DNA from: Gammaproteobacteria bacterium
Lineage (GTDB): Bacteria; Pseudomonadota; Gammaproteobacteria; Steroidobacterales; Foliamicaceae
DNA: 64,000 nt
Reading direction: 5' to 3'
NCBI GenBank assembly: GCA_009838035.1
Contig: VXSK01000023.1
Coordinates: forward strand, 74,581 to 138,580
The position numbers and the translations under genes are program-made. This document shows positions 22,395 to 40,765 of this stretch, piece by piece. Under the pieces are notes generated by a model. It did no database searches. It worked only from the letters and a program-made list of their open reading frames with translations, and was not told where the DNA came from. The first letter of the stretch is position 1, and each line of letters opens with the position of its first letter.

Positions 22395-25016
22395 TCAGAA
22401 ACGGTAACTCAAGCGGAAGTAGACGAACCCGCCGTTGTAGTCGTACGGGGAACTCTCGGGCTGTGCGTTACCCTGGCCCGAAGACTCCGCCTCGACGGCG
22501 CCGGGCGAAGTATCGAACAGGTTCTGCACTCCGGCGCTCGCGGTGTATCCGCCGGCGAAGTCGTAGCTCAGTTCCGCATCCACCAGGAAATCGCCGCCCC
22601 AGGAATCGAGGCTGGCGCAGCCGGCGCTCTGGAAACGGCAGGCGTCCCAGCCGGCAAAATAGCTTCCCCGGGCTAGCAGGCGCCAGGCGCCCCAGGCATG
22701 GTCCCAGGTAGCCGCGATGCGGTGCGCGGGGTTCATGTCTTCCAGTTCGGTGCGGCGGCGCATCGACAGCAGGCTGACGGTCTGGACTTCGTCCAGCTGT
22801 GTCCCAAGGACTTCGCTGACCGTAAACGGGGGCGAGAAGTCGTCCAGTTCGGTCCGGGTCCAGTTCCAGGCCAGCGTCAGTTCGCTGCTTCCCCCGAATG
22901 CTGCGAAAGCGTAGTTCAGGGACACGTCGAGGCCGGTGGTCGTGGTGCCGAAATCGTTGGTCAGGAAGTTGATGGTCGTCACCTCGCTTCCCGCCGCCAG
23001 GCCGCTTTGCTCCAGCAGCAGCGCGATCTGGTCGGTAATCCGGATATCGCCGGTCGGCGAAATGCGGTCGTCGATTTCAATGCGGAAGAAGTCGGCCCTG
23101 ATGCGGGCGTCCGCGGAGAAATCCCAGGTCAGCCCCACTGAAAAGCCGACCGAGGTCTCCTCCTTCAGCGGTTCGCCGCCCAGCGCCCGGGCCACGGGAT
23201 TCGTGGGCGGGACCTTGCCGACTTCCCGCAATCCTCCGAGACCGCCGAATGTTGTCGAAAGCACCGATACGTTCGCCTGACCGGGCGAAGGTGCGCGAAA
23301 ACCGGTGCTGGCCGTCGCGCGCAGGGCGAGATCTTCGGACGCCCGCCACAAGGCCGAGAGCTTGCCGTTGACCGTGGTGCCGAAATCGTCGTAAAAGTCC
23401 TCGTAACGCAGCGCAAAGCCCATGGTCAGGTCGGCCGTCAGGTCGGCCTCCAGATCGACGTAGGCCGCGTAGTTCGGGCGGTCCCACTTGCCCGCATTGC
23501 GCGGATTCAGGCCCTGGAATCCGTTCGAACCGATGCTGAAGGAACCGGCGATGCGGCCGTCGGCGTAGGGCCCGACGCGGTACGAGTCCGGATCGCCGGC
23601 CACCGTTTCGAATTCCTCGCTGCGCCACTCCAGTCCCGCGGCCACGTTCAGCGGCGAGTAGAACGCGCCGACCTCGAGCGGATAAACGGCGTCCAGGTTC
23701 ACGTTGGTCTCGTTCTGTACGTATTCGCGCGGCTTGAAGTCGGTGGGCGTCTCGGGCCCCAGCGACGCGTTGATCGTGTTGCGCATGAAGAACGCGACCT
23801 GGCTTTCGGCGCCTGAAACGCTCAAATCCCAGCTCAGGCCGTTCAGAAATTCACCGCGCAGCCCCCCGGTAAGGCTGAAGTCGGTGATGTCGGCCCCGAA
23901 ACGGGGCGTAAAACCGCCGGGGAAACGCTCGTTGAAGAGAAAACAGGAACCCCGCGTGGACTGTACGAACGCGCTCACGGCGCTGAAGTCGGCCTCCAGC
24001 CCCGGAACGGCCGCCAGGCAGTCGATCGCGTCATTGGGGTTCAGGTCCGCGACCAGGCGCCGCGAGCCGGTGCGGAAAACGCCGTTGCGCGCCGCGCTGC
24101 CCCCGGGAGCGCGGAAGAAGAAGCCGCCTTCCGACGTGCGCGTCGAATAGTTGCCGAAGGAGTAGAGCTCGATCCCTGACGGCAGTTCGGCGGCCATGTT
24201 GTAGAACGTGGTGATCGCATCGTCGATGACCGGGTTGCCCCAGATCTGGGCCGGCTCGGCAACCGGGTAGCCCTGCGCCGCCAGCGCCGAGGCGTTGGCC
24301 CGCTGGACTGCCCGGACCGTCGGGTCCAACGTCTTGTACTCCGCGCTCAGATTGAGGAAACCGGCGGCGCCCAGCGGCAGCCCGACATTGCCCGCCACTT
24401 GCGTCAATCCGCCGTCGCCCTCGTAGTACTCGCCGTAGCGGGCCTCCAGCATTCCGCCCTCCGAACTGTTCCTGAGCTGAAAGTTGATTACTCCCGCAAT
24501 CGCGTCGGACCCGTACTGGGCCGAGGCGCCGTCGCGCAGAATCTCGACACGGTCGATCGCGATGGCCGGGATCACGAACAGGTCCGGCCCCTGCGAGCCG
24601 GAATTGAGCGAACTGCCGAGAAACGCAATCACGCCGGAGCGGTGACGGCGCTTCTCGTTCACCAGCACCAGCGCCGAATCGGGCGGCAGGCCGCGCAGGG
24701 TGGCGGGCCGCACCAGGGTCGCTTCGTCGTCGATGCCGTGCCGCTGCACGTTGTAGGACAGCGTCGTGTTTCGCAGCAGATCGTCAAGATCGGTTGCGCC
24801 CTGGTTCATCAGGTCCTCGCCCGACACCACGTCCACGGGAACCGGCACGTTGTCCAGGCTCGCGTCCTTGCGCCGGGTTCCGACCACGACGATTTCCTCC
24901 AGCACGGGCGTCGAAGCCTCCTGCTCGCCCGATGCGGGCTCCTGAGCGGCAGCCCCGGGCGCGCCCACAAAACAAACCGCCGATGCAAGGAGAACCTTGC
25001 GTATACAGGTATTCAT
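22395..25016 (-). CDS. TonB-dependent outer-membrane receptor
   Basis: 873-aa ORF with a signal peptide, plug-domain start (LEEIVVVGTRR) and a C-terminal beta-barrel ending in the aromatic residue (FRLSYRF). Confidence 0.9.
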   Translation of the reverse strand: MNTCIRKVLLASAVCFVGAPGAAAQEPASGEQEASTPVLEEIVVVGTRRKDASLDNVPVPVDVVSGEDLMNQGATDLDDLLRNTTLSYNVQRHGIDDEATLVRPATLRGLPPDSALVLVNEKRRHRSGVIAFLGSSLNSGSQGPDLFVIPAIAIDRVEILRDGASAQYGSDAIAGVINFQLRNSSEGGMLEARYGEYYEGDGGLTQVAGNVGLPLGAAGFLNLSAEYKTLDPTVRAVQRANASALAAQGYPVAEPAQIWGNPVIDDAITTFYNMAAELPSGIELYSFGNYSTRTSEGGFFFRAPGGSAARNGVFRTGSRRLVADLNPNDAIDCLAAVPGLEADFSAVSAFVQSTRGSCFLFNERFPGGFTPRFGADITDFSLTGGLRGEFLNGLSWDLSVSGAESQVAFFMRNTINASLGPETPTDFKPREYVQNETNVNLDAVYPLEVGAFYSPLNVAAGLEWRSEEFETVAGDPDSYRVGPYADGRIAGSFSIGSNGFQGLNPRNAGKWDRPNYAAYVDLEADLTADLTMGFALRYEDFYDDFGTTVNGKLSALWRASEDLALRATASTGFRAPSPGQANVSVLSTTFGGLGGLREVGKVPPTNPVARALGGEPLKEETSVGFSVGLTWDFSADARIRADFFRIEIDDRISPTGDIRITDQIALLLEQSGLAAGSEVTTINFLTNDFGTTTTGLDVSLNYAFAAFGGSSELTLAWNWTRTELDDFSPPFTVSEVLGTQLDEVQTVSLLSMRRRTELEDMNPAHRIAATWDHAWGAWRLLARGSYFAGWDACRFQSAGCASLDSWGGDFLVDAELSYDFAGGYTASAGVQNLFDTSPGAVEAESSGQGNAQPESSPYDYNGGFVYFRLSYRF

Positions 25017-25137: not shown

Positions 25138-26451
25138 TCAGGTCGCGGGTTGCGGGATACCGTACTCGCGCAGCGTCGCCTCCATCGTGGGCCGGCCCAG
25201 CCGGATCCGGCTGTCGCTCAGGAGGTAGGAAAACACGAAGCCGGCGCCGAGCATCATCACGCCGATCAGGAAGCAGTAGAGCACGGCCCGGTCGGGATAC
25301 ACGTCCTTCAGGTAGCCTACGTACACCGGCCCGGCAATGCCGGCCGCCGCCCAGGCCGTGAGGATGGCGCCGTAGATGGTGGACATCTTCTTCGGACCGA
25401 AAACGTCCAGCACAAACGACGGCATGGTGGCGAACCCGCCGCCGAAACACAGCAGCACATAGCAGACCAGCGCGGAAAACACGATGGGATTGGTTTCGGT
25501 CATCAGGATACCGAACACCACCATCTGGCTGGCCAGCAGGATCCGGAACACGGCCACCCGTCCGATGCGGTCGGACAACAATCCCCAGAACAGGCGTCCC
25601 ACGCCGTTGCACAGGGAGCTCACGGCAATCAGCGTTGCGCCGTATTCGGCAAGTATGGCCGGTTCGAGCGAAGGATCGGACAGCCCCCAGACCTCCTGCA
25701 GCAACTCCGACTGGAAACTGATCACGGAGATGCCCGCGGCGATATTGAAGAAGAAAACGATCCAGAGTATGACGAAAGCCGGGGACCTGATGTACGGCCA
25801 CACCGACTCGGTCCCGCCGGCGGCGGATGCCTGCGGCGCGGACGGAGTCCCGGGCGCCGGCTCCGTTTCCGGGGGATTGCTCAGGAAGAAGCTGCAGGGA
25901 ATCAGTACGCAAGCGAAAATCACGCCCAGCCACACAAACACCAGCGACAGGTCCTGGCCCGCCTGCAATACGAGCAGGGGCGCCAGGCCCTTGCTCAGCA
26001 GAAAGGCGCCCACACCGAATCCCATCACCACGATGCCCGTAACCAGTCCCTTGCGGTCGGGAAACCATTTCGCGACGGTAGCGACCGGCGTCACGTATCC
26101 CATCCCGATGCCCGCGCCGCCGATCACTCCGTAGCCCAGGTAGAACAGCGGAATCCAGTCCAGGTACAGCGCGAGGCCGCCGATCAGGTATCCGACGGAA
26201 AACAGGGCGCTGCCCAGCAGGGCCAGCCGCCTCGGCCCCTGCCGCGGCAGCGCCTGCCCGGCCCATGCGGCCGAGACGCCGAGCGTAAAGATCGTGATGC
26301 TGAATGCCCATGCGGACTGGGTAAACGTCCAACCCGATTGCCTGACCAGGATCGTCTGAAAGAAGCTCCAGGCGTAGACCGTGCCCAGGCACACCTGCAG
26401 CGTCGTGCAGAAAAGCGCGATGACGGTCCGCGGCAAGCGAATCGTTTTCAT
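25138..26451 (-). CDS. MFS transporter, oxalate/formate antiporter (OFA) family-like
   Basis: 437-aa polytopic ORF with an OFA-type N-terminal motif (CLGTVYAWSFF). It starts 3 nt after the upstream gene's stop. Confidence 0.85.
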   Translation of the reverse strand: MKTIRLPRTVIALFCTTLQVCLGTVYAWSFFQTILVRQSGWTFTQSAWAFSITIFTLGVSAAWAGQALPRQGPRRLALLGSALFSVGYLIGGLALYLDWIPLFYLGYGVIGGAGIGMGYVTPVATVAKWFPDRKGLVTGIVVMGFGVGAFLLSKGLAPLLVLQAGQDLSLVFVWLGVIFACVLIPCSFFLSNPPETEPAPGTPSAPQASAAGGTESVWPYIRSPAFVILWIVFFFNIAAGISVISFQSELLQEVWGLSDPSLEPAILAEYGATLIAVSSLCNGVGRLFWGLLSDRIGRVAVFRILLASQMVVFGILMTETNPIVFSALVCYVLLCFGGGFATMPSFVLDVFGPKKMSTIYGAILTAWAAAGIAGPVYVGYLKDVYPDRAVLYCFLIGVMMLGAGFVFSYLLSDSRIRLGRPTMEATLREYGIPQPAT

Positions 26452-26453
26452 CG

Positions 26454-27200
26454 TTACGCCAGCGGCGCGGCCTTCAGGGACTCGGGTTTGGGCCCCTTCC
26501 GGGCAACGTACAGGAACAGGCGGGCCAGGTGGCCGGCTTCATCGTCCCGGCCCAGTATTTCCCTGTCCGACACCGCGCCTTGGTCCTCATCCCTGGCGAG
26601 ATCCACCGCGTAGGCCAGCAACTCGCCGAGCGGCCGCGCCGCCAGGTTGACGAGCCAGATCGCGGCCAGTACGCCGAACACCAGGATTCCGGCAACAAGA
26701 TAAATCTGCTGCCCGATGGCCCGCTGGATCTTGAGCGCCACCACGTCCAGATCCATGCCCACATGAACGGTCCCGGCCACCCCGGCCAGGATCGGGCTGC
26801 CGACTTCCACGAAATAGCCCATTCCCGGAATTTCCCGCTCCACGGGTTCGGTGCTGCGATGATCGCTTTCGAGAATGGCCTCGGGTATGCCCGGCACAAA
26901 GGTATGCGCGAGGTATTCGCCGGTTTCGCTGGTGATGTAGATGTAACGGATCCCCTGAATTTCGATGAACTGGTCCACCAGCGACTGCAGGGTGGCCATG
27001 TCGCGGTTCAGGAGAATGTCCACGCTGGAGTCCGCCACGGTCTTGGCGATGTTCCTGCTGTTGATCTCGTACTCGGCCGACAGCTCCGTATTGACCGTAT
27101 AGACGCAGAGGGCGGACGTCGAAAAAACGATCACGCCGAAAACGGCGAATATGCCGAATCGCGTGCGCCGGAATAGTTTCTCGATTTTCATGTCATGCAA
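26454..27200 (-). CDS. membrane sensor-like protein: TM - periplasmic domain - TM - HAMP, no output domain
   Basis: 248-aa ORF with two hydrophobic segments. HAMP-like segment RPLGELLAYAVDLARDEDQG...DDEAGHLARLF is followed by only about 15 aa. It overlaps the upstream binding-protein gene by 8 nt. Confidence 0.6.
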   Translation of the reverse strand: MHDMKIEKLFRRTRFGIFAVFGVIVFSTSALCVYTVNTELSAEYEINSRNIAKTVADSSVDILLNRDMATLQSLVDQFIEIQGIRYIYITSETGEYLAHTFVPGIPEAILESDHRSTEPVEREIPGMGYFVEVGSPILAGVAGTVHVGMDLDVVALKIQRAIGQQIYLVAGILVFGVLAAIWLVNLAARPLGELLAYAVDLARDEDQGAVSDREILGRDDEAGHLARLFLYVARKGPKPESLKAAPLA

Positions 27201-28497
27201 ATTTGGCTTGCCAATCCTGTAAAGTGACGAAACGGCCGTCCTCGACGACCGTGTAGTAAACGGTCTGCAGTCCCTGGCGCCGGTCCGGCCCGAACGAAAC
27301 CGCCTCGCCGACCCCGAGATCGAAATCCCTCACCGAAAAGACCGCTTCCTCCAGCCTTGCCCGATCGACCTCGCCGTCCAGCCGGCTGAGTATTTCCGCC
27401 AGCAGCTTGGCGTTGAGGAAGCCCTCCAGGCTGCCGAAACTGTAGGGGAAGGGCGCGTACTCCTCCTTGACCAGTTCGGGCGGAACCTGTGGGTCGTAGC
27501 GGGCCATGAGTTCGCGGTATTCGCGCACGCAGGGCAGCGACAGGTCCTCGTAACTCGGAACGACCTGGGAATTGACCAGCAGCCGGGTATAGGCCTCGCC
27601 GTCCTCGCGCCCCTCGGTCAGCAACTTGAGCATGTTCTCGCTGCCCACGAAGGACAGGTTGGCGATGGGCACATCCAGTCCGAGGTCGACGGCGTCACGG
27701 GCAAACGCTGCGCAGGCCGCGTAGGCCCCGATGCATATGACCGCGTCCGGCTCGGCCGCCTTGAGGATCTCGACCTGGCGGCGCATGGTGCCGGTGAACG
27801 GCGCGCCGCGGCTGTAGGTGGCTTCGCCGGCGATGCGCAGACCGTGCGGCGCCAGGGCCGCCCTTACGCCGGCCCAGCCGCTGCGGCCGTAGGCGTCCGC
27901 CTGGTAGAAAACGGCGATGCGCTCCTTGCCGATGCCCAGGAAGTTGTTGACCAGGCCGGCGGTCTCCTGCGCGTAGGAAGCCCTGAGGTTGAAGGCGAAA
28001 TCGCCGTACGGCGGCTGCCTCTGCGGCTGGGCGCCGGTGAAGGGAAAGAACATGAAGATGTTTTCGTCCTGGAATTTCTTCAGCAGCGGCAGCACGCGCG
28101 TGACGGTAGGCGTTCCCACGTAGCCGAACAGCAGGAAGACCTGGTCCTCCAGCATCAGCTTCATCGTGTTTTCCACGCACGGGTCGGGCTGGTAACCGTC
28201 GTCGTACATCTTGAGCACAATCCTGCGGCCGTTGATGCCGCCGTTCTCGTTCACCCGGCTGAAGTAGGCGCTTGCGCCGCGGTAGAGTTCGGTGCCCAGC
28301 CCCCGGGACGGCCCGGAAAACGCCGCCGATACGCCGAGCACGATCTCGCCGGCGTACTGCGGGCCGCCGGAGCCGGTGTCCGCCGGATCGGTGTCCGCCT
28401 GGAGGAAACGGCTCGCCGTCCCGCCGAACACCCTTCCCCACGGCGCCAGAACGGCGGCCGCCAGTCCGTAACGGATCAGCTCCTTTCTCGTCAGCAT
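27193..28497 (-). CDS. periplasmic binding protein, type 1 (Leu/Ile/Val-binding-protein-like)
   Basis: 434-aa ORF with an N-terminal export signal (RKELIRYGLAAAVLAPWG). Overall resemblance to LivK-type ABC substrate-binding proteins, but no ABC permease or ATPase genes are nearby. Confidence 0.8.
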   Translation of the reverse strand: MLTRKELIRYGLAAAVLAPWGRVFGGTASRFLQADTDPADTGSGGPQYAGEIVLGVSAAFSGPSRGLGTELYRGASAYFSRVNENGGINGRRIVLKMYDDGYQPDPCVENTMKLMLEDQVFLLFGYVGTPTVTRVLPLLKKFQDENIFMFFPFTGAQPQRQPPYGDFAFNLRASYAQETAGLVNNFLGIGKERIAVFYQADAYGRSGWAGVRAALAPHGLRIAGEATYSRGAPFTGTMRRQVEILKAAEPDAVICIGAYAACAAFARDAVDLGLDVPIANLSFVGSENMLKLLTEGREDGEAYTRLLVNSQVVPSYEDLSLPCVREYRELMARYDPQVPPELVKEEYAPFPYSFGSLEGFLNAKLLAEILSRLDGEVDRARLEEAVFSVRDFDLGVGEAVSFGPDRRQGLQTVYYTVVEDGRFVTLQDWQAKFA

Positions 28498-28551
28498 GAA
28501 CGAATCCGGCGACGCGCTGTCAGGAAACTCCCATATTCCACAGTGGGACCA

Positions 28552-29058
28552 TCAAGTCTGTCTCACGGTCCGGTCGCGGGCGGCTCTGCGCGCATTCAGG
28601 AATTCCTCCGCTTCCCTTAGCCGCTTTGCATCGGGGTTGATGCGCTTGCCTTGTTCTATGTCCTCGGCCGCCTTGCTCAGGCTCCCGGTCAGGGTATGCA
28701 GCACGGCGCGATTGGAGTACGCATGCCAGTTGTTCGGCTTCAGCCGGAGTGCCTCGTTGCAGTGCTCCAGCGCCTCCTGGAACTTGCCGCCCATCACGTA
28801 GCCCGCGCAAAGGTTGTTGTGCGCGGATGAGCGCGTGCGAATGCTGTGGGCTGTTCCCGCCGGCGAACGCAATCCCTCCAGGGTCAGCCGTATACCCTCC
28901 TCGAAGTCGCCCAGGCGCAGCGCCAGGGCCCCGTCGGAAAGATTCGGATCGGCCCCGAACACCGACTGGGATGCGGAACTCTGCCCCACCGCCGGCCCCG
29001 ACGCCAGCATCATGGCGCTTGAGAGGCAGACGAGGCATGCGCGTATCGATACCGACAT
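28552..29058 (-). CDS. secreted TPR-repeat protein
   Basis: 168-aa ORF with a signal peptide (ACLVCLSSAMMLASGPAVG) and TPR-like repeats (FQEALEHCNEALRLKPNNWHAYSNRAV). Confidence 0.65.
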   Translation of the reverse strand: MSVSIRACLVCLSSAMMLASGPAVGQSSASQSVFGADPNLSDGALALRLGDFEEGIRLTLEGLRSPAGTAHSIRTRSSAHNNLCAGYVMGGKFQEALEHCNEALRLKPNNWHAYSNRAVLHTLTGSLSKAAEDIEQGKRINPDAKRLREAEEFLNARRAARDRTVRQT

Positions 29059-29067
29059 GTCTATATC

Positions 29068-30549
29068 TTACGCTGCCTTCGGGTAGATCTCCGACAGCGG
29101 CCGGCTGCGGCCGTCCGGCTGAACGATCCGGCAATGCTCGCGGCGCAGCAGCCGCGGCTCGGCGACACCGCAGGAATGCGCGATGATCTTCAGTTCCTCC
29201 TCGATCCGGCGCTGGTAATTGGCCACGCTCACCGCCTTGGTGGGCGGATCGAGACCGCGTTGCAGCCGCCGGTTGTGGGTGGTGATGCCCGTGGGGCAGG
29301 TGTTCTTGTTGCAGCGCATCGCCTGTATGCAGCCCAGGGCGAACATGAAGCCCCTGGCGGACACCGCAAAGTCCGCCCCCGCGCACAGTGCCCAAGCCAC
29401 CTCCGTGGGCGTGATCAGCTTGCCGCTGGCCACCACCCGCACACGATCGCGAAGGCCGTGGCGCTCAAGCGCGTCCACCAGCATGATCAGGCTCTCCCGC
29501 AGCACCATGCCCACGTTGTCCATGAGCGGCATCGGGGCCGCGCCCGTGCCGCCGTCGCCGGAGTCCACGGTAATGAAATCGGGCGCCGCGTCCGGCCCGC
29601 GTCGGTTGATCAGTTCGAACAGCTCATCCAGCCACTGCGGATTGCCGACCACGGCCTTGTAGCCGGTGGGTTTGCCGCCCACGTCCCGAACCCTGGCGAT
29701 CAGGTCCAGCAGTTCCCCGTTGTTGCTCACCTCGCGATGGCGGTTCGGGCTTACGGCGTCCTCGCCGGTACGGATACCGCGGATGCGGGCAATCTCGCCG
29801 GTCACCTTCGCGCCCGGCAGGATCCCGCCCTTGCCGGGTTTGGCGCCCTGGCTCAGTTTGATCTCGATCATTTTCACCTGCGGGTTCGAGCCGACTTCCC
29901 CGAGGCGTTCCTCGCTAAGCGCGCCATCGGGCGTGCGCACGCCGTTCTTGGCCGTTCCGAACTGAAACACGATGTCGTTGCCGGCCTCCAGGTGCCAGGG
30001 CGAGAGCCCGCCCTCGCCGGTGTTCATCCAGCATCCGGCCGTCGCCGCGCCCTTGCCGAGCGCCGTGACCGCCGGCCTGGATATGGCCCCGAAACTCATT
30101 CCGGAAATGTGAAAGATGCGGTTGGTCGTGTAGGGATTGGGACCGTCCGCGCCCACCGTCACCTTCGAGGTGTCGCGGCATTCCTCGTCCAGCAGGCCGA
30201 AGGGCGCGTTGGCGAAGATGGCCGTGCCCGGCCAGCGCGTTTCGCGGGTCGAGCCGAAGGCCACGGTCATGGAGCCGGCGCTGGAAGCCCGGCCGACCCA
30301 GTTGCGCTGCGCCCGGTTGAACGGCATTTCCTCCCGGTCCATCGCGAACATGTACTGCCGCATGAACTCGCCCATGACCTCGAAAATCCGGCGGAAACGG
30401 CCGATGACCGGGTAATTGCGGCGAACGGCGTTGGCAGTCTGCGCAAGGTCCACGATCAGCAGCACGAACAGCGCCAGCAGCGTGGTCCCGACCGCAAGAA
30501 GAAACAGGCGCGTCAGGAGTTCGACGGCCTGATCAACGAATTCCATCAT
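29068..30549 (-). CDS. membrane-anchored FMN-binding glutamate synthase family protein (GltB FMN-domain-like)
   Basis: Start taken at MMEFVDQ (30549). N-terminal TM segment. SQGAKPGKGGILPG matches the gltB FMN-domain motif QGAKPGEGGELPG seen in this window. Confidence 0.8.
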   Translation of the reverse strand: MMEFVDQAVELLTRLFLLAVGTTLLALFVLLIVDLAQTANAVRRNYPVIGRFRRIFEVMGEFMRQYMFAMDREEMPFNRAQRNWVGRASSAGSMTVAFGSTRETRWPGTAIFANAPFGLLDEECRDTSKVTVGADGPNPYTTNRIFHISGMSFGAISRPAVTALGKGAATAGCWMNTGEGGLSPWHLEAGNDIVFQFGTAKNGVRTPDGALSEERLGEVGSNPQVKMIEIKLSQGAKPGKGGILPGAKVTGEIARIRGIRTGEDAVSPNRHREVSNNGELLDLIARVRDVGGKPTGYKAVVGNPQWLDELFELINRRGPDAAPDFITVDSGDGGTGAAPMPLMDNVGMVLRESLIMLVDALERHGLRDRVRVVASGKLITPTEVAWALCAGADFAVSARGFMFALGCIQAMRCNKNTCPTGITTHNRRLQRGLDPPTKAVSVANYQRRIEEELKIIAHSCGVAEPRLLRREHCRIVQPDGRSRPLSEIYPKAA

Positions 30550-30616
30550 GCTCAACCCCCATGCGGCCACCCGGTTTCGGAAGGGGCGGCCTGGTGTGCT
30601 GTCCGACAGCACACAG

Positions 30617-30689
30617 TGGGCCTGGCAGGATTCGAACCTGCGACCAAGTGGTTATGAGCCACCTGCTCTTACCACTGAGCTACAGGCCC
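30617..30689 (-). tRNA. tRNA with CAT anticodon (Met, or Ile2 if lysidine-modified)
   Basis: Minus-strand sequence is GGGCCTGTAGCTCAGTGGTAAGAGCAGGTGGCTCATAACCACTTGGTCGCAGGTTCGAATCCTGCCAGGCCCA. It folds as a full cloverleaf. The D-arm and variable region resemble E. coli ileX more than metT (by memory). CCA is not encoded. Confidence 0.9.
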
Positions 30690-30756
30690 TCCGAAGGCTC
30701 GAAGTATAGCCGCACCAGCGTTTTTAGCCGGGTCGCCCGACCCCGCTGCCGCGGCT

Positions 30757-31377
30757 CTAGCGCCGGCGTTTGCGCCAGGAACCGGGTCCGGTGTTGCCCC
30801 TGATGGGATAGGAGTGCGGAAGCACGGCCAGCCGGGCGAGATGCTGGCGCTGCGGATCATCGGATCTCGCAGCTTCCAGCAGTTCGCTCCATACCTTGGG
30901 CCGGTCGGCGAACCGGGCCTTCAGAATGCTACCCGAGTGGGGGGCCAGGCCCTGAATGTCGCCGAAGTTCAGATTGCGCACCGGTTCTCCTTCCTGGCCG
31001 GCGGCGCCCAGCCAGAGCGACGAGAGCGTGTGCTTCTGCTGGGCGTCCTGTGTGAGCCAGGTCATCAGCGCCGCGCCGAACACCTGCTCCGCGGCCTCGT
31101 TCCCGAGCATGCCCCGGTCCTCTCCTTCTTCGCTGTCACGCACCGTCTCCGCCTTCTCGACGGCGCCGCGGGTAACGGTAACCAGCAGCAGCGGCACGCT
31201 AGCCACCAGATCGCGCTGCGAATCCGTCAATGCCCTGATTTCGCGGCATAATTCTTCGGGAAGCCCATACTTGCTTTCGGCTGCTTCACCGTCAAGTTGA
31301 GCAATCAAATCGACAAAGCGACGGTTGATTTCGAAGATTTCTTCCAGTCGCTTTCGTTCTTCTGATTCGTCTGCCAT
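30757..31377 (-). CDS. FlhD-like N-terminal domain protein (putative FlhDC/SetCD/AcaCD-family activator subunit)
   Basis: 206-aa ORF with RBS AAGGAG. Residues about 11-70 (LEEIFEINRRFVDLIAQL...YGLPEELCREIRALTDSQRDLVASVPLLLV) align by eye with E. coli FlhD (LKHIYDINLSYLLLAQRL...[29 protein letters not shown]). The C-terminal half is unassigned. Confidence 0.55.
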   Translation of the reverse strand: MADESEERKRLEEIFEINRRFVDLIAQLDGEAAESKYGLPEELCREIRALTDSQRDLVASVPLLLVTVTRGAVEKAETVRDSEEGEDRGMLGNEAAEQVFGAALMTWLTQDAQQKHTLSSLWLGAAGQEGEPVRNLNFGDIQGLAPHSGSILKARFADRPKVWSELLEAARSDDPQRQHLARLAVLPHSYPIRGNTGPGSWRKRRR

Positions 31378-31490
31378 TCGTTACTCCTTGCGGGTTCGAC
31401 ATATTGTCGTTGTTTTTCTTTCCTTTACTATTGAGACAAACACCGCGTTCGCGATCAACCCCGAAAAAGTGGCCTGATTGTCCAATTTTT

Positions 31491-31502
31491 CGATTGCAAT
31501 CG
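31491..31502. promoter_or_regulatory. perfect 12-bp palindrome CGATTGCAATCG in the AT-rich divergent FlhD-like/FlhC-like intergenic region
   Basis: Self-complementary sequence 30 nt upstream of the FlhC-like ATG. The operator role is only a guess. Confidence 0.2.
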
Positions 31503-31531
31503 CGGTTGGAATTCGGTAGAAAGCCTGCCCC

Positions 31532-32116
31532 ATGCGTGTAACGCAAAGCCGTTATGACGGTGAACTGGACCGCTTCCATCTGGCCATCCGCATGCTCGGA
31601 TTGCAGGCCCGCACGAGCACAATCGGACGGTACACGGGCCTCTCCAGCGACCGCATACGCAAGGCCTATGTCAGCTATGTGGCCGAGCATGGCAAAAACA
31701 GGCTGCCCCGGCGCAAGCGGGGCCGGCCACCCAGCCGCGTGGCCCATTTCTTCAAGACCCGCCACCGGCATTGCGAATCGACCGTCCTGGTTTCGCTATT
31801 CATGCACGCCGGACTGCTCGTGCCGGACGGCCCGGCCCGGTGCAGGGTGCCGGGTTCGCTGAGCCTTCTGTCGCAGGGGCGCCGCCTGTGCGACGCCTAC
31901 GAAATGCACCGCCGCATGATGCCCGGCGGAGAAATGTCGCTGGAACTCGCCGCCACCCTGCTACGCGCCCTGGGGGAGACGCACGAACTTGTGATCACGG
32001 AGTGCGATTACTGCGGCGCGTTATATGTCCATGACGCGTACGCCCTGGACTATGGGCGCAGCCCATTCTGCGATCCGCCCCGGCCAGCTGGCCGGGCGCG
32101 GTATCAGCAGCGGTAG
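31532..32116 (+). CDS. FlhC-like transcriptional activator subunit
   Basis: 194-aa ORF, the same size as FlhC. By-eye alignments to E. coli FlhC: HLAIRMLGLQARTSTIGRYTGLSSDRIRKAY vs [31 protein letters not shown]; GRPP vs GSPPP; C-terminal Cys cluster ECDYCG...PFC vs CNCCG...CSLC. Confidence 0.65.
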   Translation: MRVTQSRYDGELDRFHLAIRMLGLQARTSTIGRYTGLSSDRIRKAYVSYVAEHGKNRLPRRKRGRPPSRVAHFFKTRHRHCESTVLVSLFMHAGLLVPDGPARCRVPGSLSLLSQGRRLCDAYEMHRRMMPGGEMSLELAATLLRALGETHELVITECDYCGALYVHDAYALDYGRSPFCDPPRPAGRARYQQR

Positions 32117-32125
32117 CGGCCCCAA

Positions 32126-32977
32126 TTACCCGGCCAGTTCGGCCACGAAAGCGTCGAAGCTGCGCAGGGGATGGCCGACCGCCTCCTGTGACGCGGCGAC
32201 CTCGGCTTCGCTGGCCGCGGGGCCATGCGCCTGCTGGGCCAGAAACATCTTCTTGAGCGAATCCAGCAGCCAGGGCGCGAGAAAGGCCTTGACCGACTCG
32301 CCCCATTTCTCCACGTCGTCGCCGCCGTAAAAGACCTCGCGCCCGAAGTGCCTGGCGTAGACCGCCGCCGCCCCGGGACCGCTGATCGTGTCCGGGCCGT
32401 GCAGGTCGTATTCGGCGCCGTTGTGTCCGTCTTCCGTCAATGCGCGCACGGCGCAGTCGGCGATGTCGCGCGTGTCCACCCGGTTCTGGCCGATCGTCCC
32501 GATGGGCATCGGATAGACGCCGAAGTCCTTGACGACGCGCACCACGGACAGGTCGGTCTGGTTGAAGTAACTCGGGCGCAGGATCGTGTACTCGGCGCCG
32601 CTTTCCCTGATCGCCGCCTCGATGGGCAGTTTGCTGCGGCTGTGCGGAATCGGGGGCTCCTGGTCCGGGTTGTGGACCGACAGGTAGACGATCCTTCCGA
32701 CGCCGGCCGCCTTCGCGGCGTTGACGGCGTTCAGGCCGCGTTGCGTCTCCGTTTCCCCGTTGGCGGTGATCAGGAAGAACCGGTCCACGCCGTCGAAAGC
32801 CGCGTCCAGGCCGCTGCCCGTTTCCAGGTCCGCCACGGCCCCTTCCGCGCCCTCCGGAAGGGCGCCCAATTTGTCTTCCGAGCGGCTCAGCGCGCGCACC
32901 GTTTCACCCGAGGAAAGCAGGGCCGCCACCGTCGGGCGGCCGACATTGCCGGTCGCGCCGGCTACGAGAATGGTCAT
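32126..32977 (-). CDS. NmrA-like NAD(P)-binding atypical SDR
   Basis: Internal ATG at 32977 (MTILVAGATGNVG Rossmann motif), 283 aa. The ORF-track extension to 33790 is antisense to the next gene. Confidence 0.8.
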   Translation of the reverse strand: MTILVAGATGNVGRPTVAALLSSGETVRALSRSEDKLGALPEGAEGAVADLETGSGLDAAFDGVDRFFLITANGETETQRGLNAVNAAKAAGVGRIVYLSVHNPDQEPPIPHSRSKLPIEAAIRESGAEYTILRPSYFNQTDLSVVRVVKDFGVYPMPIGTIGQNRVDTRDIADCAVRALTEDGHNGAEYDLHGPDTISGPGAAAVYARHFGREVFYGGDDVEKWGESVKAFLAPWLLDSLKKMFLAQQAHGPAASEAEVAASQEAVGHPLRSFDAFVAELAG

Positions 32978-33049
32978 ATGAACAGGTTCCGTCTGACTGA
33001 AGAAATTCGCGCCGTACATGTTATAAACACGGCCGAAGCATCGCAAGGA

Positions 33050-33976
33050 ATGAGCACCCTGACCGATATTGAAAACCGGGCCGGACTCGCCCGCATCACC
33101 TGCGGCTGGAAAAAGCCGGAACTGCCGCTTTCCTGGGTGCGCCGCTACTGGCGGGACGTCCATAGCCCCGCCATTACACGCCGGGCCGGAATTTACGATT
33201 ACCGGCATTACCAGTACGACGAGGTCGATTCCGCGCTGTTCGGCGCCGTCAAGGGTGTCGAACTCGATTGTCCCCTCGGCGAGCGGCTCATGTGGAATTC
33301 GGACGTCCGTTACCTGGACGAGGCCGGCCTGGCGGCCTTCGACGCCATGCCGCCGCCCGAAGTGAAGCCCCACCTGCTCGGCGACATCGATCTGATCGTG
33401 GAAAGGAGCACGACCTATCGCGCCGTGGGTTCGAATGCCCTCACCCTGGTGGACCGCACGGCCGACGCCGCGCCCCAGGGTCCGCCGGCCAAACCGGCTT
33501 ACGCCCTGTTCATGCGGCAGCGGGCGGACGAATCCTCTTTTCGGGCATGCGTCCGGACCCTGGCCCGGCGCTGGTCGGAGTTCGATGGCGTGCTGCGGGT
33601 CCGCATGAGCCTGTTCGAAGTCCCGGACATGGAGGCCGAGCGCAAGGCCGGTTATCCGATCAAGACACACCCGACGGAGCAGCAATACCAGGCCACAATT
33701 GAAATCGTCTTGAGCGAGCGGGAGGTGGGCCGGGATCTGCTCAGTGACCGGGTCGGCGTGGATTGGGCAGGCCCGATCCGCACGATTCACGCCTATCCGG
33801 TGGCGGCCTGCTACACCAGTGTCTACGCCGGCCGGCCCACCCTCGTCGGGCTACGCGGATATGCCGCCCACCAGGCCATCGGGGCGCTGGGCGCGGACAA
33901 CCAGACGGAACCCGGCCTGCTGGAATGGATGTACGGGCCCGTGGCGAGCGATGGCACATCCGGAGAGGGCGTGTGA
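33050..33976 (+). CDS. hypothetical protein (possibly tandem EthD-like / dimeric alpha-beta-barrel domains)
   Basis: 308-aa product from the ATG at 33050 (MSTLTDIENRAG). Weak EthD-like pattern (RRYWRDVHSPAI...YRHYQY). Its stop overlaps the next gene's GTG start (GTGA). Confidence 0.55.
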   Translation: MSTLTDIENRAGLARITCGWKKPELPLSWVRRYWRDVHSPAITRRAGIYDYRHYQYDEVDSALFGAVKGVELDCPLGERLMWNSDVRYLDEAGLAAFDAMPPPEVKPHLLGDIDLIVERSTTYRAVGSNALTLVDRTADAAPQGPPAKPAYALFMRQRADESSFRACVRTLARRWSEFDGVLRVRMSLFEVPDMEAERKAGYPIKTHPTEQQYQATIEIVLSEREVGRDLLSDRVGVDWAGPIRTIHAYPVAACYTSVYAGRPTLVGLRGYAAHQAIGALGADNQTEPGLLEWMYGPVASDGTSGEGV

Positions 33977-37227: not shown

Positions 37228-39219
37228 GTGAAGCCTGACAAGCAGCCCCATCCAACTCCGTCCGAACCGGAGGAGCCGGCGCGCGTCAACCGCAGGGATT
37301 TCGTTTCGTCCGCAATGGCGGCCGGGTTGGCCGCCGCGGGCGTGGGCGCCGCCGGCAAGGCGTCGGCAACGCAGGCGGCCGGCGATGCGCAGGAGCCGGG
37401 CGCGATGCCGCCCACGGCCGCGCAGGAGGCGATGGAATCCGAAATACCGGACGGCTATACGGCCGGGCAGGCGCGCGAGTATTTCGTCCGCAATCCGGGG
37501 TCCGATTTCATGCTGGACGTCATCCGGCGGCTCGGTCTCGAATACATCGCCACCAACCCGGGTTCCAGCTTCCGCGGACTGCAGGAATCCATCGTCAACT
37601 ACGGCGGCAACCAGGCGCCGGAACTGCTGACCTGCGTGCACGAGGAACAGGCGGCGGCCATGGCCCATGGCTACTACAAGGTCGGCGGAAAGCCCATGGG
37701 CGTGCTCTGCCACGGCACCGTGGGACTGCAGCACGCTTCCATGGCGGTCTATAACGCGTGGTGCGACCGGGCGCCGATGATTCTGCTCGCGGGCAACCAC
37801 CTGGAGGCGACGGATCGCCGGGCGGGCGTGGAGTGGTCGCATTCCGCGCAGGACTGCGTGCGGGTCATACGGGACTACATCAAGTGGGACGACATGCCGC
37901 TTTCCCTGCAGCACTACGCCGAGTCCATGGCCCGCGGCCTGAAGATCGCGATGACGCCGCCGGCGGGGCCGGTGGCCGTGGTGCTGGACGGGCATCTTCA
38001 GGAGGCCGAGGCGGGCGACCGGGATCTGGTCCCGACTGCCGTTTCCCTCAACCGGCCGCCCATCGGCGACGAGGGCGCGGTCGGGGAGACGGCTCGCATG
38101 CTGCTGGAAGCGGAATCGCCCGTCATCGTGGCGGACCTGATGGCCCGTGATCAGGAGGGCGTGGACCGGCTCGTCGCGCTGGCCGAGGCCCTGCAGGCGC
38201 CGGTGGTCAACCAGTTCGGGCGCATGAACTTCCCGAACACGCACTACCTCTCGCAGGGAGCGGCCGCGGTGGCCCAGGCCGACGTCGTGCTCGGACTGGA
38301 ACTCTTCGACGTCTGGGGCGTGATCAACACCGTGCGCGACCGGGTCCACCGGGACAGCGTGCGCAAGGCGCGGCCGGACGCACGCGTGATCAGCATTGGG
38401 TCCAACGACCTGTTCACCAGGTCCAACTACCAGAATTTCCAGCGTTTCTACCTTTCGGACCTCTCCATCGCCGGGGACGCGCAGGCCACGTTGCCCTTGC
38501 TGACCGATGCCGTGCTCTCGGCGATGACGCCCGCGCGGCGCGCGAGCAACGCCGCGAGGGAGGCCAGCTGGCGGGAGATCCACTCGCGCGCCCGCGGACA
38601 GGCCCTGGACGACGCGCGCTACGGATGGAACGCGGTTCCGGTGAGCACGGCCCGCCTCTACGCCGAACTGTGGCAGGTGGTCAAGGACCGGGACTGGGCG
38701 CTGGTCTCGGACGACGGCGCGCAGAGCCGATGGGCCCGCCGGCTGTGGCCCATCGAAAGGCACTATCAGTACATCGGCCGCTCGGGCGGGGCCGGTCTCG
38801 GCTACGGCGCTCCGGCGGCCGTAGGCGCGGCGCTGGCCCACCGCCCCCAAGGACGGTTCGCGGTCAACGTGCAGAAGGACGGCGACATGATGTACACGCC
38901 GGGCGCGTTCTGGACCGCCGCCTATCACGGCATTCCGCTGTTGACGGTGACCCACAACAACCAGGGCTACCACCAGGAATACATGCACCTGCAGCGCATG
39001 GCGGCGCGGCGCCAGCGCGGAATCGAAAGCAGTTGGCGGGTCGGCAACGAATTGCGCAATCCCGACATCGACCTGGCCGGCATTGCCCGCGCCACGGGCG
39101 TGTGGGCCGAGGGGCCGATTCTGGATCCGGCCGATCTGGGCCCGGCCCTGGCCCGCGCCGCGGAAGTCGTCGATGGCGGAGAGCCGGCATTCGTGGACGT
39201 TCGCTGTCAGCCGAGATGA
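37228..39219 (+). CDS. thiamine diphosphate-dependent enzyme (ALS/pyruvate oxidase superfamily) with twin-arginine signal
   Basis: GTG start with RBS GGGGAGGA. Tat motif NRRDFVSSAMAAGLAAAGVGAAGKASA. Pyr-domain Glu context VHEEQAAAMAHGYY. ThDP-binding motif KDGDMMY...THNNQGY. Confidence 0.8.
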   Translation: MKPDKQPHPTPSEPEEPARVNRRDFVSSAMAAGLAAAGVGAAGKASATQAAGDAQEPGAMPPTAAQEAMESEIPDGYTAGQAREYFVRNPGSDFMLDVIRRLGLEYIATNPGSSFRGLQESIVNYGGNQAPELLTCVHEEQAAAMAHGYYKVGGKPMGVLCHGTVGLQHASMAVYNAWCDRAPMILLAGNHLEATDRRAGVEWSHSAQDCVRVIRDYIKWDDMPLSLQHYAESMARGLKIAMTPPAGPVAVVLDGHLQEAEAGDRDLVPTAVSLNRPPIGDEGAVGETARMLLEAESPVIVADLMARDQEGVDRLVALAEALQAPVVNQFGRMNFPNTHYLSQGAAAVAQADVVLGLELFDVWGVINTVRDRVHRDSVRKARPDARVISIGSNDLFTRSNYQNFQRFYLSDLSIAGDAQATLPLLTDAVLSAMTPARRASNAAREASWREIHSRARGQALDDARYGWNAVPVSTARLYAELWQVVKDRDWALVSDDGAQSRWARRLWPIERHYQYIGRSGGAGLGYGAPAAVGAALAHRPQGRFAVNVQKDGDMMYTPGAFWTAAYHGIPLLTVTHNNQGYHQEYMHLQRMAARRQRGIESSWRVGNELRNPDIDLAGIARATGVWAEGPILDPADLGPALARAAEVVDGGEPAFVDVRCQPR

Positions 39220-39590
39220 GCGCGCGTTCGCGGATCCCCCTGCCGCCGGGCATTGCCGCCCCGGTGTTGCTGCTGTTGACTCTGGGCGCCACGCCTGCGT
39301 GGCCTGACGAACCCGGCGACGAGGCCAAGGAAGGCCTTGAGCTGTATATCAGCCAGCAGTGTTGGCAGTGCCACGGCTATGAAGGACAGGGAGGCGTGGC
39401 CGGCGTCCGTATTGCCCGGACCGTCCTGCCTTTTGAAGCGTTTGCGCGGCTGGTCCGGTTCACGAACCTGATGCCGGCCTATTCGCCGAAGGTGCTCAGC
39501 GACGATCAGCTCCGGCAGATCTACGACTATGTGCGTTCCATTCCGGAGCCGCCGCCGCTGGAAGAGATCCCGGAACTGGATTTCGACTAG
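39216..39590 (+). CDS. mono-haem c-type cytochrome (periplasmic)
   Basis: 124-aa product whose ATG overlaps the upstream stop (ATGA). Signal peptide. Single CWQCH haem-binding motif. Confidence 0.8.
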   Translation: MSARSRIPLPPGIAAPVLLLLTLGATPAWPDEPGDEAKEGLELYISQQCWQCHGYEGQGGVAGVRIARTVLPFEAFARLVRFTNLMPAYSPKVLSDDQLRQIYDYVRSIPEPPPLEEIPELDFD

Positions 39591-40747: not shown

Positions 40748-40765
40748 GTTCGAACCCGTACGCCG

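What the first reader, a model, noticed from the sequence alone, without database searches (positions are those of the whole stretch)
30757..32116. Orphan, divergently transcribed FlhD-like / FlhC-like pair next to a tRNA and a regulator-less catabolic cluster
The 194-aa plus-strand ORF aligns by eye with FlhC along its length, including the N-terminal helix pattern, the G-x-PP segment and the C-terminal CxxC...C region (only 3 of the 4 Zn-site Cys are seen). The 206-aa minus-strand ORF has an FlhD-like N-terminal ~60 residues plus an unassigned C-terminal half. FlhD and FlhC form the flagellar master activator. Homologous pairs (SetCD, AcaCD, SgaCD) are the master activators of SXT/R391 ICEs, IncC plasmids and SGI1. 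In all of those the two genes form one operon. Here they are divergent across a 154-bp AT-rich spacer that contains a perfect palindrome, CGATTGCAATCG. No flagellar, conjugation or integrase genes are in the window. The adjacent ~20-kb catabolic cluster contains no LysR/IclR/TetR/GntR-type regulator that I can see. A domesticated FlhDC-family activator controlling catabolic or periplasmic-enzyme genes would be unusual.
Basis: partly seen in the sequence, partly recalled or inferred. Interest (0 to 1): 0.55.

Follow-up and report, generated by a model that had tools for sequence, protein, structure and literature searches.

The report
Chromosomal divergent FlhC / double-FlhD regulator pair
Two back-to-back genes encode distant relatives of the flagellar master regulator FlhDC, and they belong to a widespread, unannotated chromosomal family that has nothing visibly to do with flagella or plasmids and whose target genes are still unknown.

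Summary
The 194-aa plus-strand protein has the FlhC fold; FlhC chains are its only significant structural matches. The plasmid activator AcaD has the same tandem build.

The pair is not an orphan. It belongs to an uncharacterised family, annotated "hypothetical", found in uncultured Gammaproteobacteria (Ca. Foliamicus relatives and sediment metagenomes). In that family the two genes are always adjacent and always divergent: 22 of 22 close loci and 78 of 78 wider-family loci. They share a short AT-rich spacer with a conserved element that occurs nowhere else in the loci examined. All contexts are housekeeping chromosome, with no flagellar, conjugation, integrase, plasmid or phage link.

The proposed control of the neighbouring 32-53 kb catabolic cluster is not supported. 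That cluster is syntenic only in close relatives and carries no copy of the spacer element. The 12-bp palindrome is not conserved.

Most likely this is a heteromeric, self-regulated FlhDC/AcaCD-type transcription factor acting at its own divergent promoter region. Its wider regulon is unknown. I rate it a new variant of a known kind, of moderate interest.

The parts
30757..31377 (-). D-like gene (206 aa): tandem double-FlhD protein
   Evidence: Conserved family of 51 close homologues. Part of a wider family of 194 representatives at E<=1e-3. dN/dS 0.13-0.35.
31147..31353 (-). First FlhD-like domain (about aa 9-77)
   Evidence: BLASTP to E. coli FlhD residues 7-50, E=5e-4. Family profile A4 hits only FlhD in the PDB: 8j56_A 4.7e-7, 5hxg_B 1.2e-4, 1g8e_A 2.1e-4. 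34 of 123 members hit Pfam FlhD. Foldseek local match to 1g8e over 60 columns at rmsd 1.7 A, not significant.
30829..31092 (-). Second FlhD-like domain (about aa 96-183)
   Evidence: The C-half profile A7 alone has FlhD chains as its top three PDB hits (E 0.004-0.007, next best 0.67). 5 of 46 C-halves hit Pfam FlhD, best 5.2e-6. hhalign of N-half against C-half gives E=3.8e-4 over 65 columns in register.
31384..31389 (-). Shine-Dalgarno AAGGAG of the D-like gene
   Evidence: Read directly from the sequence. The CTCC core is conserved in the spacer alignment.
31378..31531 (.). Divergent 154-bp AT-rich spacer
   Evidence: 46.8% GC against 66.8% for the window. The divergent layout holds in 22 of 22 clade loci and 78 of 78 wider-family loci with room upstream.
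31426..31503 (.). Conserved core of the spacer: blocks ACTATTGAGACAAAC (31427-31441), GATCAACCCCGAAAAAGTGG (31453-31472), and T-run plus TTGCAAT (31486-31500). Candidate promoters and operator.
   Evidence: Alignment A3 shows invariant columns. An nhmmer model hits exactly once per clade locus and nowhere else. The blocks are unique in the window.
31491..31502 (.).
   Evidence: Exact and unique but not conserved as a palindrome; only the TTGCA[AT]T core is kept. That core could be a -35 box (TTGCAA, 17 bp, TAGAAA). This is inference only; the consensus scan found no sigma-70 site.
31532..32116 (+). C-like gene (194 aa): FlhC-fold subunit
   Evidence: Foldseek hits FlhC chains only. Pfam FlhC is below cut-off in 28 of 28 members. 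dN/dS 0.05-0.18.
31709..31738 (+). Invariant basic loop RRKRGRPPSR (aa 60-69), AT-hook-like
   Evidence: R61-P67 is invariant in the family. It aligns with RGSPPP of E. coli FlhC. Two members give weak Pfam AT_hook hits. This is a low-pLDDT loop in the model. DNA contact is inferred, not shown.
32003..32071 (+). C-terminal Cys cluster C158-x2-C161 ... S177-P-F-C180 (zinc-ribbon-like, 3 of 4 Cys)
   Evidence: Alignments. It aligns to the CxxC of FlhC. The wider family has CPxC at the second pair.
30616..30689 (-). tRNA-Met(CAT): conserved left boundary of the variable D/C cassette
   Evidence: ARAGORN. Present at the same position in L001 and L002. Identity to L013 drops sharply right after it.
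32126..32980 (-). NmrA-like gene, convergent with the C-like gene: conserved right boundary
   Evidence: Pfam NmrA. Present to the right of the pair in 22 of 22 clade loci.
25138..30549 (-). Co-directional conserved cluster downstream of the D-like gene (Glu_synthase-domain protein, TPR, Peripla_BP_6, sCache_3_2, MFS): candidate local target
   Evidence: Pfam. Syntenic with the pair in 19 of 22 clade loci. No terminator-like site was found between the D-like stop and the tRNA. Co-transcription is not shown.

Best explanation
The locus encodes a two-subunit transcription regulator of the FlhDC superfamily. It is a chromosomal, non-flagellar and non-mobile branch of that superfamily.

One subunit (194 aa) has the FlhC fold, with a Cys-cluster C-terminus and an invariant basic RKRGRPP loop. 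The other (206 aa) is a fusion of two FlhD-like domains. It therefore resembles, within one chain, the FlhD dimer that each FlhC binds in FlhD4C2. The plasmid master activator AcaD has the same build.

The two genes are always adjacent and divergent, and they share a short AT-rich spacer. The most likely mechanism is that the proteins form a heteromer (probably D2C2). The heteromer binds the conserved element in its own spacer and co-regulates the two divergent transcription units. In this clade those units are the D-like gene, possibly with the downstream tRNA-Met and uptake-like cluster, and the monocistronic C-like gene. In the wider family they are a D-like/ABC-2 exporter/SRAP operon and a C-like/NudC operon. 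Any further regulon is unknown.

Shown: the folds and homologies, the double-FlhD architecture, the invariant pairing and divergence, the private conserved spacer element, purifying selection on both genes, and the chromosomal housekeeping context.

Inferred: complex formation, DNA binding at the spacer, autoregulation, and the direction of regulation.
For: FlhC fold: Foldseek hits FlhC chains only. There is full-length weak sequence similarity.

Double FlhD. The same duplication is present in AcaD (hhalign of N-half against C-half, E=4e-6), and the family profile aligns with AcaD over 152 columns.

Pairing and divergence: 22 of 22 loci and 78 of 78 loci. The partners in the wider family are C-like at 37-42% identity.

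Spacer: a conserved core found only in the spacer. The wider family has a near-invariant TACTATATATGG-N8-ACCATAAAAGGTAA element with dyad symmetry, again found only in the spacer.

Co-inheritance as a unit: in L013 both genes and the spacer diverge together (dS 0.9-1.3) while the flanks have dS 0.07-0.22.

Functionality: dN/dS is 0.05-0.35.

Precedent for a heteromer: AcaD co-purifies with AcaC (PMC4207636). The FlhD4C2 structures are 2avu and 8j56.

Context: housekeeping chromosome in the window and in the wider family. No plasmid, phage or viral-contig relatives.
Against: No direct evidence exists that the two proteins interact or bind DNA, and a multimer prediction could not be run.

The window protein itself gives no Pfam FlhD hit, and the full-length D-like model has no significant fold match. 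The FlhD assignment rests on profile-level, transitive evidence with E-values of 1e-3 to 1e-7.

One of the four zinc ligands is missing in this clade.

The conserved spacer blocks could simply be promoter elements rather than an operator. The clade and wider-family elements do not cross-detect each other.

No sigma-70-like promoter was found by the consensus scan.

The target genes are unknown.
Confidence: 0.62

Rival explanations
1. One reading: a domesticated FlhDC-family activator that controls the adjacent, regulator-less 32-53 kb catabolic gene cluster.
For: No classical regulator domain was found among the cluster genes scanned. The pair is physically adjacent to the cluster. The PrpD-hydrolase-TauD-TPP block follows the pair in the seven closest relatives.
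Against: The block is absent next to the pair in 15 of 22 clade loci and in the entire wider family. The C-like gene is separated from it by a convergent NmrA gene. No copy of any conserved spacer block, and no hit of the spacer HMM, occurs anywhere else in the window. The space between the C-like gene and NmrA is an insertion-prone variable zone.
Confidence: 0.07
2. A remnant or satellite of a mobile element inserted next to tRNA-Met. For example, a SgaCD-like sensor or activator left behind by an ICE or genomic island, or one that responds to such an element.
For: All previously described non-flagellar FlhDC-like activators are on mobile elements. The pair is adjacent to a tRNA. The cassette has been exchanged between closely related genomes. 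The D subunit shares the AcaD architecture. A variable insertion zone lies to its right.
Against: There is no integrase, relaxase or T4SS gene in 64 kb or in about 100 related loci with 10-kb flanks. The chromosomal position is the same across a whole order-level clade, and a different but equally stable housekeeping position holds in the wider family. The pair lies on the 5' side of the tRNA, not at its 3' end, where elements integrate (established knowledge). No relatives were found in 72,556 plasmids, 50,697 phages or the IMG/VR contigs. GC content is close to the genome's.
Confidence: 0.07
3. A true but very divergent flagellar master regulator (an FlhDC orthologue) whose flagellar regulon lies elsewhere in the genome.
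For: FlhC and FlhD are the only detectable relatives in Pfam and the PDB. Whole genomes could not be inspected.
Against: The scores are below the Pfam and NCBIfam FlhC cut-offs (22 against 27 bits; 20.7 against 216 bits). The D subunit is a double domain rather than the 116-aa FlhD. The genes are divergent rather than an flhDC operon next to motAB. No mot, che or fli genes lie within 10 kb in any of about 100 loci.
Confidence: 0.06
4. The two proteins do not act as one DNA-binding complex. For example, the double-FlhD protein could be an anti-activator or adaptor, or the C-like protein could act alone, with the linkage reflecting antagonistic regulation.
For: The D-like gene evolves two to three times faster than the C-like gene. 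Divergent promoters allow independent expression. BisC/BisD show that FlhC-like proteins can work with unrelated partners, and AF3 did not predict a robust BisC-BisD interaction. One zinc ligand is missing.
Against: Co-occurrence is strict at 100%, and the genes and spacer are exchanged together as a cassette. Both FlhDC and AcaCD need both subunits (PMC4207636).
Confidence: 0.12

Closest known systems
AcaCD of IncA/C plasmids (with SetCD of SXT/R391 ICEs and SgaCD of SGI1)
   Same: A heteromeric two-subunit design with an FlhC-like subunit of about 185-195 aa carrying a C-terminal CxxC...C cluster. The D subunit is about 200 aa and, as shown here, is a tandem pair of FlhD-like domains in both. 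Both are only weakly similar to Pfam FlhC and FlhD (PMC4207636; PMC4542580). Both are non-flagellar.
   Different: acaD-acaC form one operon with overlapping genes on a conjugative plasmid, under Acr1, Acr2 and AcaB control. Here the genes are divergent, chromosomal and far from any transfer genes. Sequence similarity is marginal (hhalign E=1e-4 for D and 2e-3 for C; tblastn finds nothing). AcaC keeps four Cys; the window protein has three.
FlhD4C2, the flagellar master activator (E. coli 2avu/1g8e; Cupriavidus necator 8j56)
   Same: The C-like model superposes on FlhC (TM 0.71-0.75 normalised by target). Each half of the D-like protein matches the FlhD profile and structures. The RG(R/S)PP loop and the CxxC are aligned.
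   Different: FlhD is a single 116-aa domain that dimerises, whereas here two domains are fused. flhDC is an operon next to motAB. Scores are below the family cut-offs. There is no flagellar context. One zinc Cys is lost.
BisC/BisD of ICEclc (DUF2857-type)
   Same: A distant FlhC-like subunit works with a second activator subunit and has positive autoregulation. Weak DUF2857 hits were seen for some family members.
   Different: BisD carries a ParB-like CTP clamp domain, and its activator domain is not detectably FlhD-like. BisC lacks the zinc site and has an extra N-terminal dimerisation domain. It is ICE-borne. None of this applies here.

Membership tests
FlhC (Pfam PF05280 / NCBIfam NF009365) | Sequence score above the curated family cut-off | tested here: not met
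   22 bits against a 27-bit cut-off. 20.7 bits against 216. All 28 relatives are also sub-threshold.
FlhC (Pfam PF05280 / NCBIfam NF009365) | FlhC three-dimensional fold | tested here: met
   Foldseek: 8j56_C/F and 2avu_E are the only hits with E<1 (E 1.6e-5 to 5.6e-4, TM 0.71-0.75 normalised by target) on a pLDDT-80 model.
FlhC (Pfam PF05280 / NCBIfam NF009365) | Four-cysteine zinc site (CxxC...CxxC) | tested here: not met
   C158, C161 and C180 are present; position 177 is Ser here and Ser or Gly in most of the clade. The wider family has all four. Metal binding itself is not testable here.
FlhC (Pfam PF05280 / NCBIfam NF009365) | Encoded in an flhD-flhC operon within a flagellar or motility gene neighbourhood | tested here: not met
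   The genes are divergent. No flagellar domains were found in the window or in related loci. Compare E. coli flhDC-motA. Whole genomes were not inspected.
FlhD (Pfam PF05247) | Detectable FlhD domain | tested here: inconclusive
   The window protein gives no Pfam hit, and 3 of 29 close relatives hit weakly. The wider-family profile hits only FlhD in the PDB (4.7e-7) and 34 of 123 members hit PF05247. Homology is therefore supported transitively, not directly.
FlhD (Pfam PF05247) | Single-domain protein of about 116 aa that forms homodimers | tested here: not met
   The protein is 206 aa with two FlhD-like domains in tandem.
AcaCD/SetCD/SgaCD mobile-element master activators | D subunit of about 200 aa paired with an FlhC-like subunit | tested here: met
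   AcaD is 202 aa with an internal repeat. The profile aligns over both halves.
AcaCD/SetCD/SgaCD mobile-element master activators | D and C genes co-transcribed as one operon | tested here: not met
   Divergent in 100 of 100 loci. acaD and acaC overlap in one operon.
AcaCD/SetCD/SgaCD mobile-element master activators | Carried by a conjugative plasmid, ICE or mobilisable island and activating transfer genes | tested here: not met
   No transfer or integrase genes nearby. No plasmid, phage or viral relatives.
AcaCD/SetCD/SgaCD mobile-element master activators | Physical heteromer that binds a specific box upstream of target promoters | not testable with these tools
   No multimer prediction or binding assay was available. 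Only the conserved spacer element is known.
BisCD (ICEclc) | D-type subunit with an N-terminal ParB/CTP clamp domain | tested here: not met
   No ParB-type Pfam hit in the D-like protein or its relatives. For the BisD architecture.

The most novel reading that the evidence does not exclude
This is a widespread, ancient chromosomal branch of the FlhDC superfamily. Its fused double-FlhD subunit would give a D2C2 complex instead of the D4C2 assumed for all relatives. It travels as a self-contained 'regulator plus own operator' cassette that can be swapped between genomes. It may represent the stock from which the AcaCD/SetCD-type master activators of resistance plasmids and ICEs were recruited, and it may control a regulon unrelated to motility or transfer: an ABC-2 exporter and NudC in sediment bacteria, and an uptake-like cluster in sponge- or host-associated Foliamicales.
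Probability: 0.25. Interest if true: 0.65.

Novelty: new variant of a known kind. Interest (0 to 1): 0.45.

Why it matters
In the literature I could search, FlhDC-type heteromeric activators are known from only two settings: the flagellar hierarchy and the master switches of resistance-spreading plasmids, ICEs and islands. A third setting, chromosomal and neither flagellar nor mobile, with several hundred relatives in genome and metagenome collections, would broaden the view of what this regulator architecture is used for. It would also offer an outgroup for understanding how AcaCD and SetCD arose.

The finding that the D subunit is a tandem FlhD repeat, both here and in AcaD, bears directly on the assumed FlhD4C2-like stoichiometry of AcaCD and SgaCD (PMC8373056). 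It is testable with existing reagents.

For this particular window, the practical consequence is negative. There is no evidence that the pair regulates the neighbouring catabolic genes.

Tried and rejected
(1) Direct searches with the D-like protein (Pfam, NCBIfam, PDB sequence, close-family profile) found nothing. Only the exhaustive profile search and a deeper alignment resolved it.

(2) Foldseek with the full-length D-like model gave no significant match.

(3) tblastn of the C-like protein, a wider-family D-like protein and E. coli FlhC against plasmids did not reach AcaC or AcaD. I located acaDC from the gene order in the paper instead. Accession KF551948 is not in the collection.

(4) The metagenome scan with the 123-sequence D alignment failed because it was too divergent. 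I repeated it with three C-like partners.

(5) I considered a sigma-54 promoter reading of TGGC...TTGC in the spacer and rejected it: the GG-GC spacing is two bases short and the bases are not conserved (read). The sigma-70 consensus scan found nothing.

(6) Cross-detection between the clade spacer model and the wider-family spacer model found no hits. The shared ACTAT / GAyCA / AAAAGGT pieces seen by eye are not statistically supported.

(7) For an RNA hairpin in the wider-family C-leader, RNAalifold found no consensus and per-sequence z-scores are only moderate. I did not claim it.

(8) The Pizza-protein PDB hits come from many sub-threshold matches to a designed repeat protein and were discarded. 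P0281 (a 2355-aa insect protein) is a spurious repeat match.

(9) The literature search for Foliamicus returned nothing.
Full report
**1. What is there**

The two ORFs are exactly as described: 31532..32116 (+), 194 aa, and 30757..31377 (-), 206 aa. They are separated by a 154-bp spacer. tRNA-Met(CAT) lies at 30616..30689 (-), immediately downstream of the minus-strand gene. The spacer is 46.8% GC in a 66.8% GC window.

Both ORFs are real genes. Each has dozens of homologues at 50-95% identity with many invariant columns. Pairwise dN/dS is 0.05-0.18 for the plus-strand gene and 0.13-0.35 for the minus-strand gene.

**2. The plus-strand protein is FlhC-like**

Sequence evidence is consistent but sub-threshold:
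- Pfam FlhC gives E=1.5e-4 and 22 bits against a 27-bit cut-off.
- The NCBIfam FlhC equivalog gives 20.7 bits against 216.
- All 28 relatives hit FlhC weakly.
- BLASTP against E. coli FlhC aligns residues 15-190 at 25% identity, E=7e-7. The alignment includes RGRPPS against RGSPPP and the CxxC.

The AlphaFold2 model (pLDDT 80, pTM 0.78) settles the question. The only Foldseek hits with E<1 are the three FlhC chains 8j56_C, 8j56_F and 2avu_E, with E from 1.6e-5 to 5.6e-4 and TM 0.71-0.75 normalised by target.

C158, C161 and C180 are conserved, and position 177 is Ser or Gly. The wider family described below keeps CxxC...CPxC.

An invariant basic loop, RKRGRPP (aa 61-67), sits in a low-confidence region of the model and resembles an AT-hook. 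That it contacts the AT-rich spacer is my inference.

**3. The minus-strand protein is a tandem double FlhD**

On its own it hits nothing in Pfam, NCBIfam or PDB sequences. The close-family profile also finds nothing. BLASTP to E. coli FlhD gives only a short match: residues 11-51 against 7-50, 32% identity, E=5e-4. The full-length model has no significant fold match, only a local 60-column, 1.7 A alignment to 1g8e.

An exhaustive profile search found 194 cluster representatives at E<=1e-3, nearly all about 200 aa and matching end to end. A 123-sequence alignment of these (A4) behaves as follows:
- It hits only FlhD among 177,635 PDB sequences: 8j56_A 4.7e-7, 5hxg_B 1.2e-4, 1g8e_A 2.1e-4.
- 34 members hit Pfam FlhD individually, best 1.5e-8.

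The C-terminal halves alone (A7) behave the same way:
- FlhD chains are again the three best PDB hits (E 0.004-0.007, next best 0.67), covering FlhD residues 23-101.
- 5 of 46 hit Pfam FlhD, best 5.2e-6.
- The N-half and C-half profiles align with each other in register, 65 columns, E=3.8e-4.

The 'unassigned C-terminal half' is therefore a second FlhD-like domain.

The same holds for the plasmid activator AcaD, taken from pAR060302. Its residues 24-88 and 106-170 align at 28% identity (hhalign E=4e-6, probability 87%). Both half-profiles of the present family hit both AcaD halves. The full profile aligns with AcaD over 152 columns, E=1.1e-4. AcaD is reported as 22.8 kDa and co-purifies with AcaC (PMC4207636). 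I found no mention of this duplication in the papers I could search. One of them assumes a possible FlhD4C2-like hexamer for AcaCD and SgaCD.

**4. The pair is not an orphan**

*Close relatives.* In 22 related loci from uncultured Gammaproteobacteria or Ca. Foliamicus MAGs (order Ca. Foliamicales), the two genes are always adjacent and divergent.

*Wider family.* A metagenome scan with the wider family's C-like partners confirmed 357 relatives. In all 78 fetched loci that have room upstream, a D-like gene lies divergently, typically about 120 bp away. The partners are 37-42% identical to the window's C-like protein.

*Annotation and mobility.* Public sources call these proteins 'hypothetical protein'. 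No relatives occur in the plasmid, phage or viral-contig collections.

**5. Genomic context**

The window is ordinary core chromosome. It carries LeuRS, CysRS, a class I Trp/Tyr-type aminoacyl-tRNA synthetase, holA, RsfS, YhdP, TldD/PmbA, PurE and GltBD, along with transporters and oxidoreductases. No flagellar, conjugative, integrase or classical regulator domains appear among the 50 genes scanned.

Within the clade, neighbours are conserved as follows:

| Neighbour | Position | Loci with it (of 22) |
|---|---|---|
| NmrA-like gene, convergent | right | 22 |
| tRNA-Met, Glu_synthase-domain, TPR, Peripla_BP_6, sCache_3_2, MFS cluster | left, co-directional with the D-like gene | 19 |

In the wider family the synteny is different but equally stable and housekeeping. 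The order is mevalonate-pathway genes, GspA/GspB, SRAP, ABC-2 permease, ABC ATPase, D-like | C-like, NudC-type NUDIX, then argR-argGCDFBH. What stays constant across the family is therefore the divergent pair itself, not any particular neighbour.

**6. The spacer**

Alignment of 19 clade spacers shows three conserved blocks:
- ACTATTGAGACAAAC (31427-31441)
- GATCAACCCCGAAAAAGTGG (31453-31472)
- a T-run followed by TTGCA[AT]T (31486-31500)

Each block is unique in the window. An nhmmer model of the core hits exactly once per locus and nowhere else in the window or in about 440 kb of clade sequence.

The wider family has a near-invariant TACTATATATGG-N8-ACCATAAAAGGTAA element with dyad symmetry. 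It too is found only in the spacer, sometimes duplicated there.

Perfect 12-bp palindromes are common in this window (34 of 415 tiles). Near-matches are at chance level. The site is not palindromic in relatives. Its conserved TTGCAA core, followed 17 bp later by TAGAAA, may be the C-like promoter. That is inference only; the consensus scan found no sigma-70 site.

**7. A cassette that moves as a unit**

Compared with L013, nucleotide identity is 85-100% up to the tRNA-Met gene. It falls to 47-82% across exactly 30700-32116 and returns to about 92% at NmrA. Synonymous divergence of the two genes (0.92 and 1.27) is 5-10 times that of the flanks (0.07-0.22). This indicates allele replacement by recombination rather than mere relaxation. 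Other neighbours (sCache, MFS) show similar mosaicism in other genome pairs, so recombination is general in this population. I do not read this as evidence of mobility.

**8. Mechanism**

The best-supported reading is a heteromeric FlhDC/AcaCD-type transcription factor. Its D subunit is an intramolecular pseudo-dimer, so the expected stoichiometry is D2C2. It would act at the conserved element of its own divergent promoter region and thereby co-regulate the two flanking transcription units.

Steps shown: the folds and homologies, the architecture, the invariant linkage and divergence, the private conserved element, purifying selection, and the context.

Steps inferred: complex formation, DNA binding, autoregulation, and any regulon.

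A mobile-element origin and a cryptic flagellar role are unlikely but could not be excluded without whole genomes.

**9. Verdict**

This is a new variant of a known kind of regulator. Its distinguishing features are that it is chromosomal, always divergent, has a double-FlhD subunit, and in this clade has a 3-Cys site. It is of moderate interest mainly because the family is large, unannotated and unexplored, and because the double-FlhD finding carries over to AcaD.

Noticed in passing
window 30700-32116 compared with L013 9800-10606 and L012: The D/C pair and its spacer form a sharply bounded divergent cassette (47-82% nucleotide identity, dS 0.9-1.3) inside flanks that are 92-99% identical (dS 0.07-0.22). 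This suggests allele replacement by homologous recombination anchored at tRNA-Met and NmrA.
   Followed up: partly
Between the C-like gene and NmrA: window 32117-32125; L002/L007 8570-12790; L013 10607-12470; L020 10544-14570; L012 10544-11357: The short gap between the C-like stop and the convergent NmrA gene is an insertion-prone zone. Relatives carry 0.8-4.2 kb of extra DNA there, for example a TonB-dependent receptor plus a beta-lactamase-family gene in L002. IS-related genes lie just beyond NmrA in L002.
   Followed up: no
L109 13425-14033 (acaD of pAR060302): AcaD, annotated 'hypothetical protein', is itself an internal tandem repeat of an FlhD-like domain (residues 24-88 against 106-170, 28% identity, hhalign E=4e-6). 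This bears on the assumed D4C2 stoichiometry of AcaCD and SgaCD.
   Followed up: partly
Wider-family loci L024-L089, about 30-50 nt upstream of the C-like start codon: A GC-rich inverted repeat of variable sequence, followed by T's, lies between the conserved element and the Shine-Dalgarno. In some loci it is a second ATGGTC-N6-GACCAT palindrome. It could be a leader hairpin or attenuator, or a second operator. The fold z-score is only -1.2 on average and RNAalifold finds no consensus.
   Followed up: partly
window 25138-30549 (and 22395-25016): A conserved cluster of unknown function sits next to the pair: a membrane-anchored Glu_synthase (FMN) domain protein, a TPR protein, Peripla_BP_6, a small sCache_3_2 protein, an MFS transporter and, in some genomes, a TonB-dependent receptor. 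It looks like an uptake or sensing module. A canonical GltB/GltD pair lies elsewhere in the window (52995-59436).
   Followed up: no
L110 5986-6561 (Azospirillum brasilense plasmid p2): A gene annotated as an 'FlhC family transcriptional regulator' sits beside a Tad/Flp pilus gene cluster and is preceded by a small hypothetical gene. This may be another non-flagellar use of an FlhC-like regulator.
   Followed up: no
L014 9609-9708; L009 and L010: L014 (WTGP01000012.1, 100% identical, probably the source MAG) has a 100-base run of N inside the C-like gene with duplicated flanks, which is an assembly gap. L009 and L010 are two copies of the locus in one 3.2-Mb chromosome (near its end and about 62 kb from its start), possibly a terminal-overlap assembly artefact.
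   Followed up: partly
window 40358-42766 and 32126-33790: Longest-ORF calls are inflated in this high-GC DNA. The 802-aa ORF has glyoxalase domains only in residues 502-774. The 554-aa ORF contains a roughly 285-aa NmrA gene and is overlapped by a 583-aa ORF on the opposite strand. Small ORFs at 39207-39626 and 39977-40330 gave no Pfam hit.
   Followed up: no
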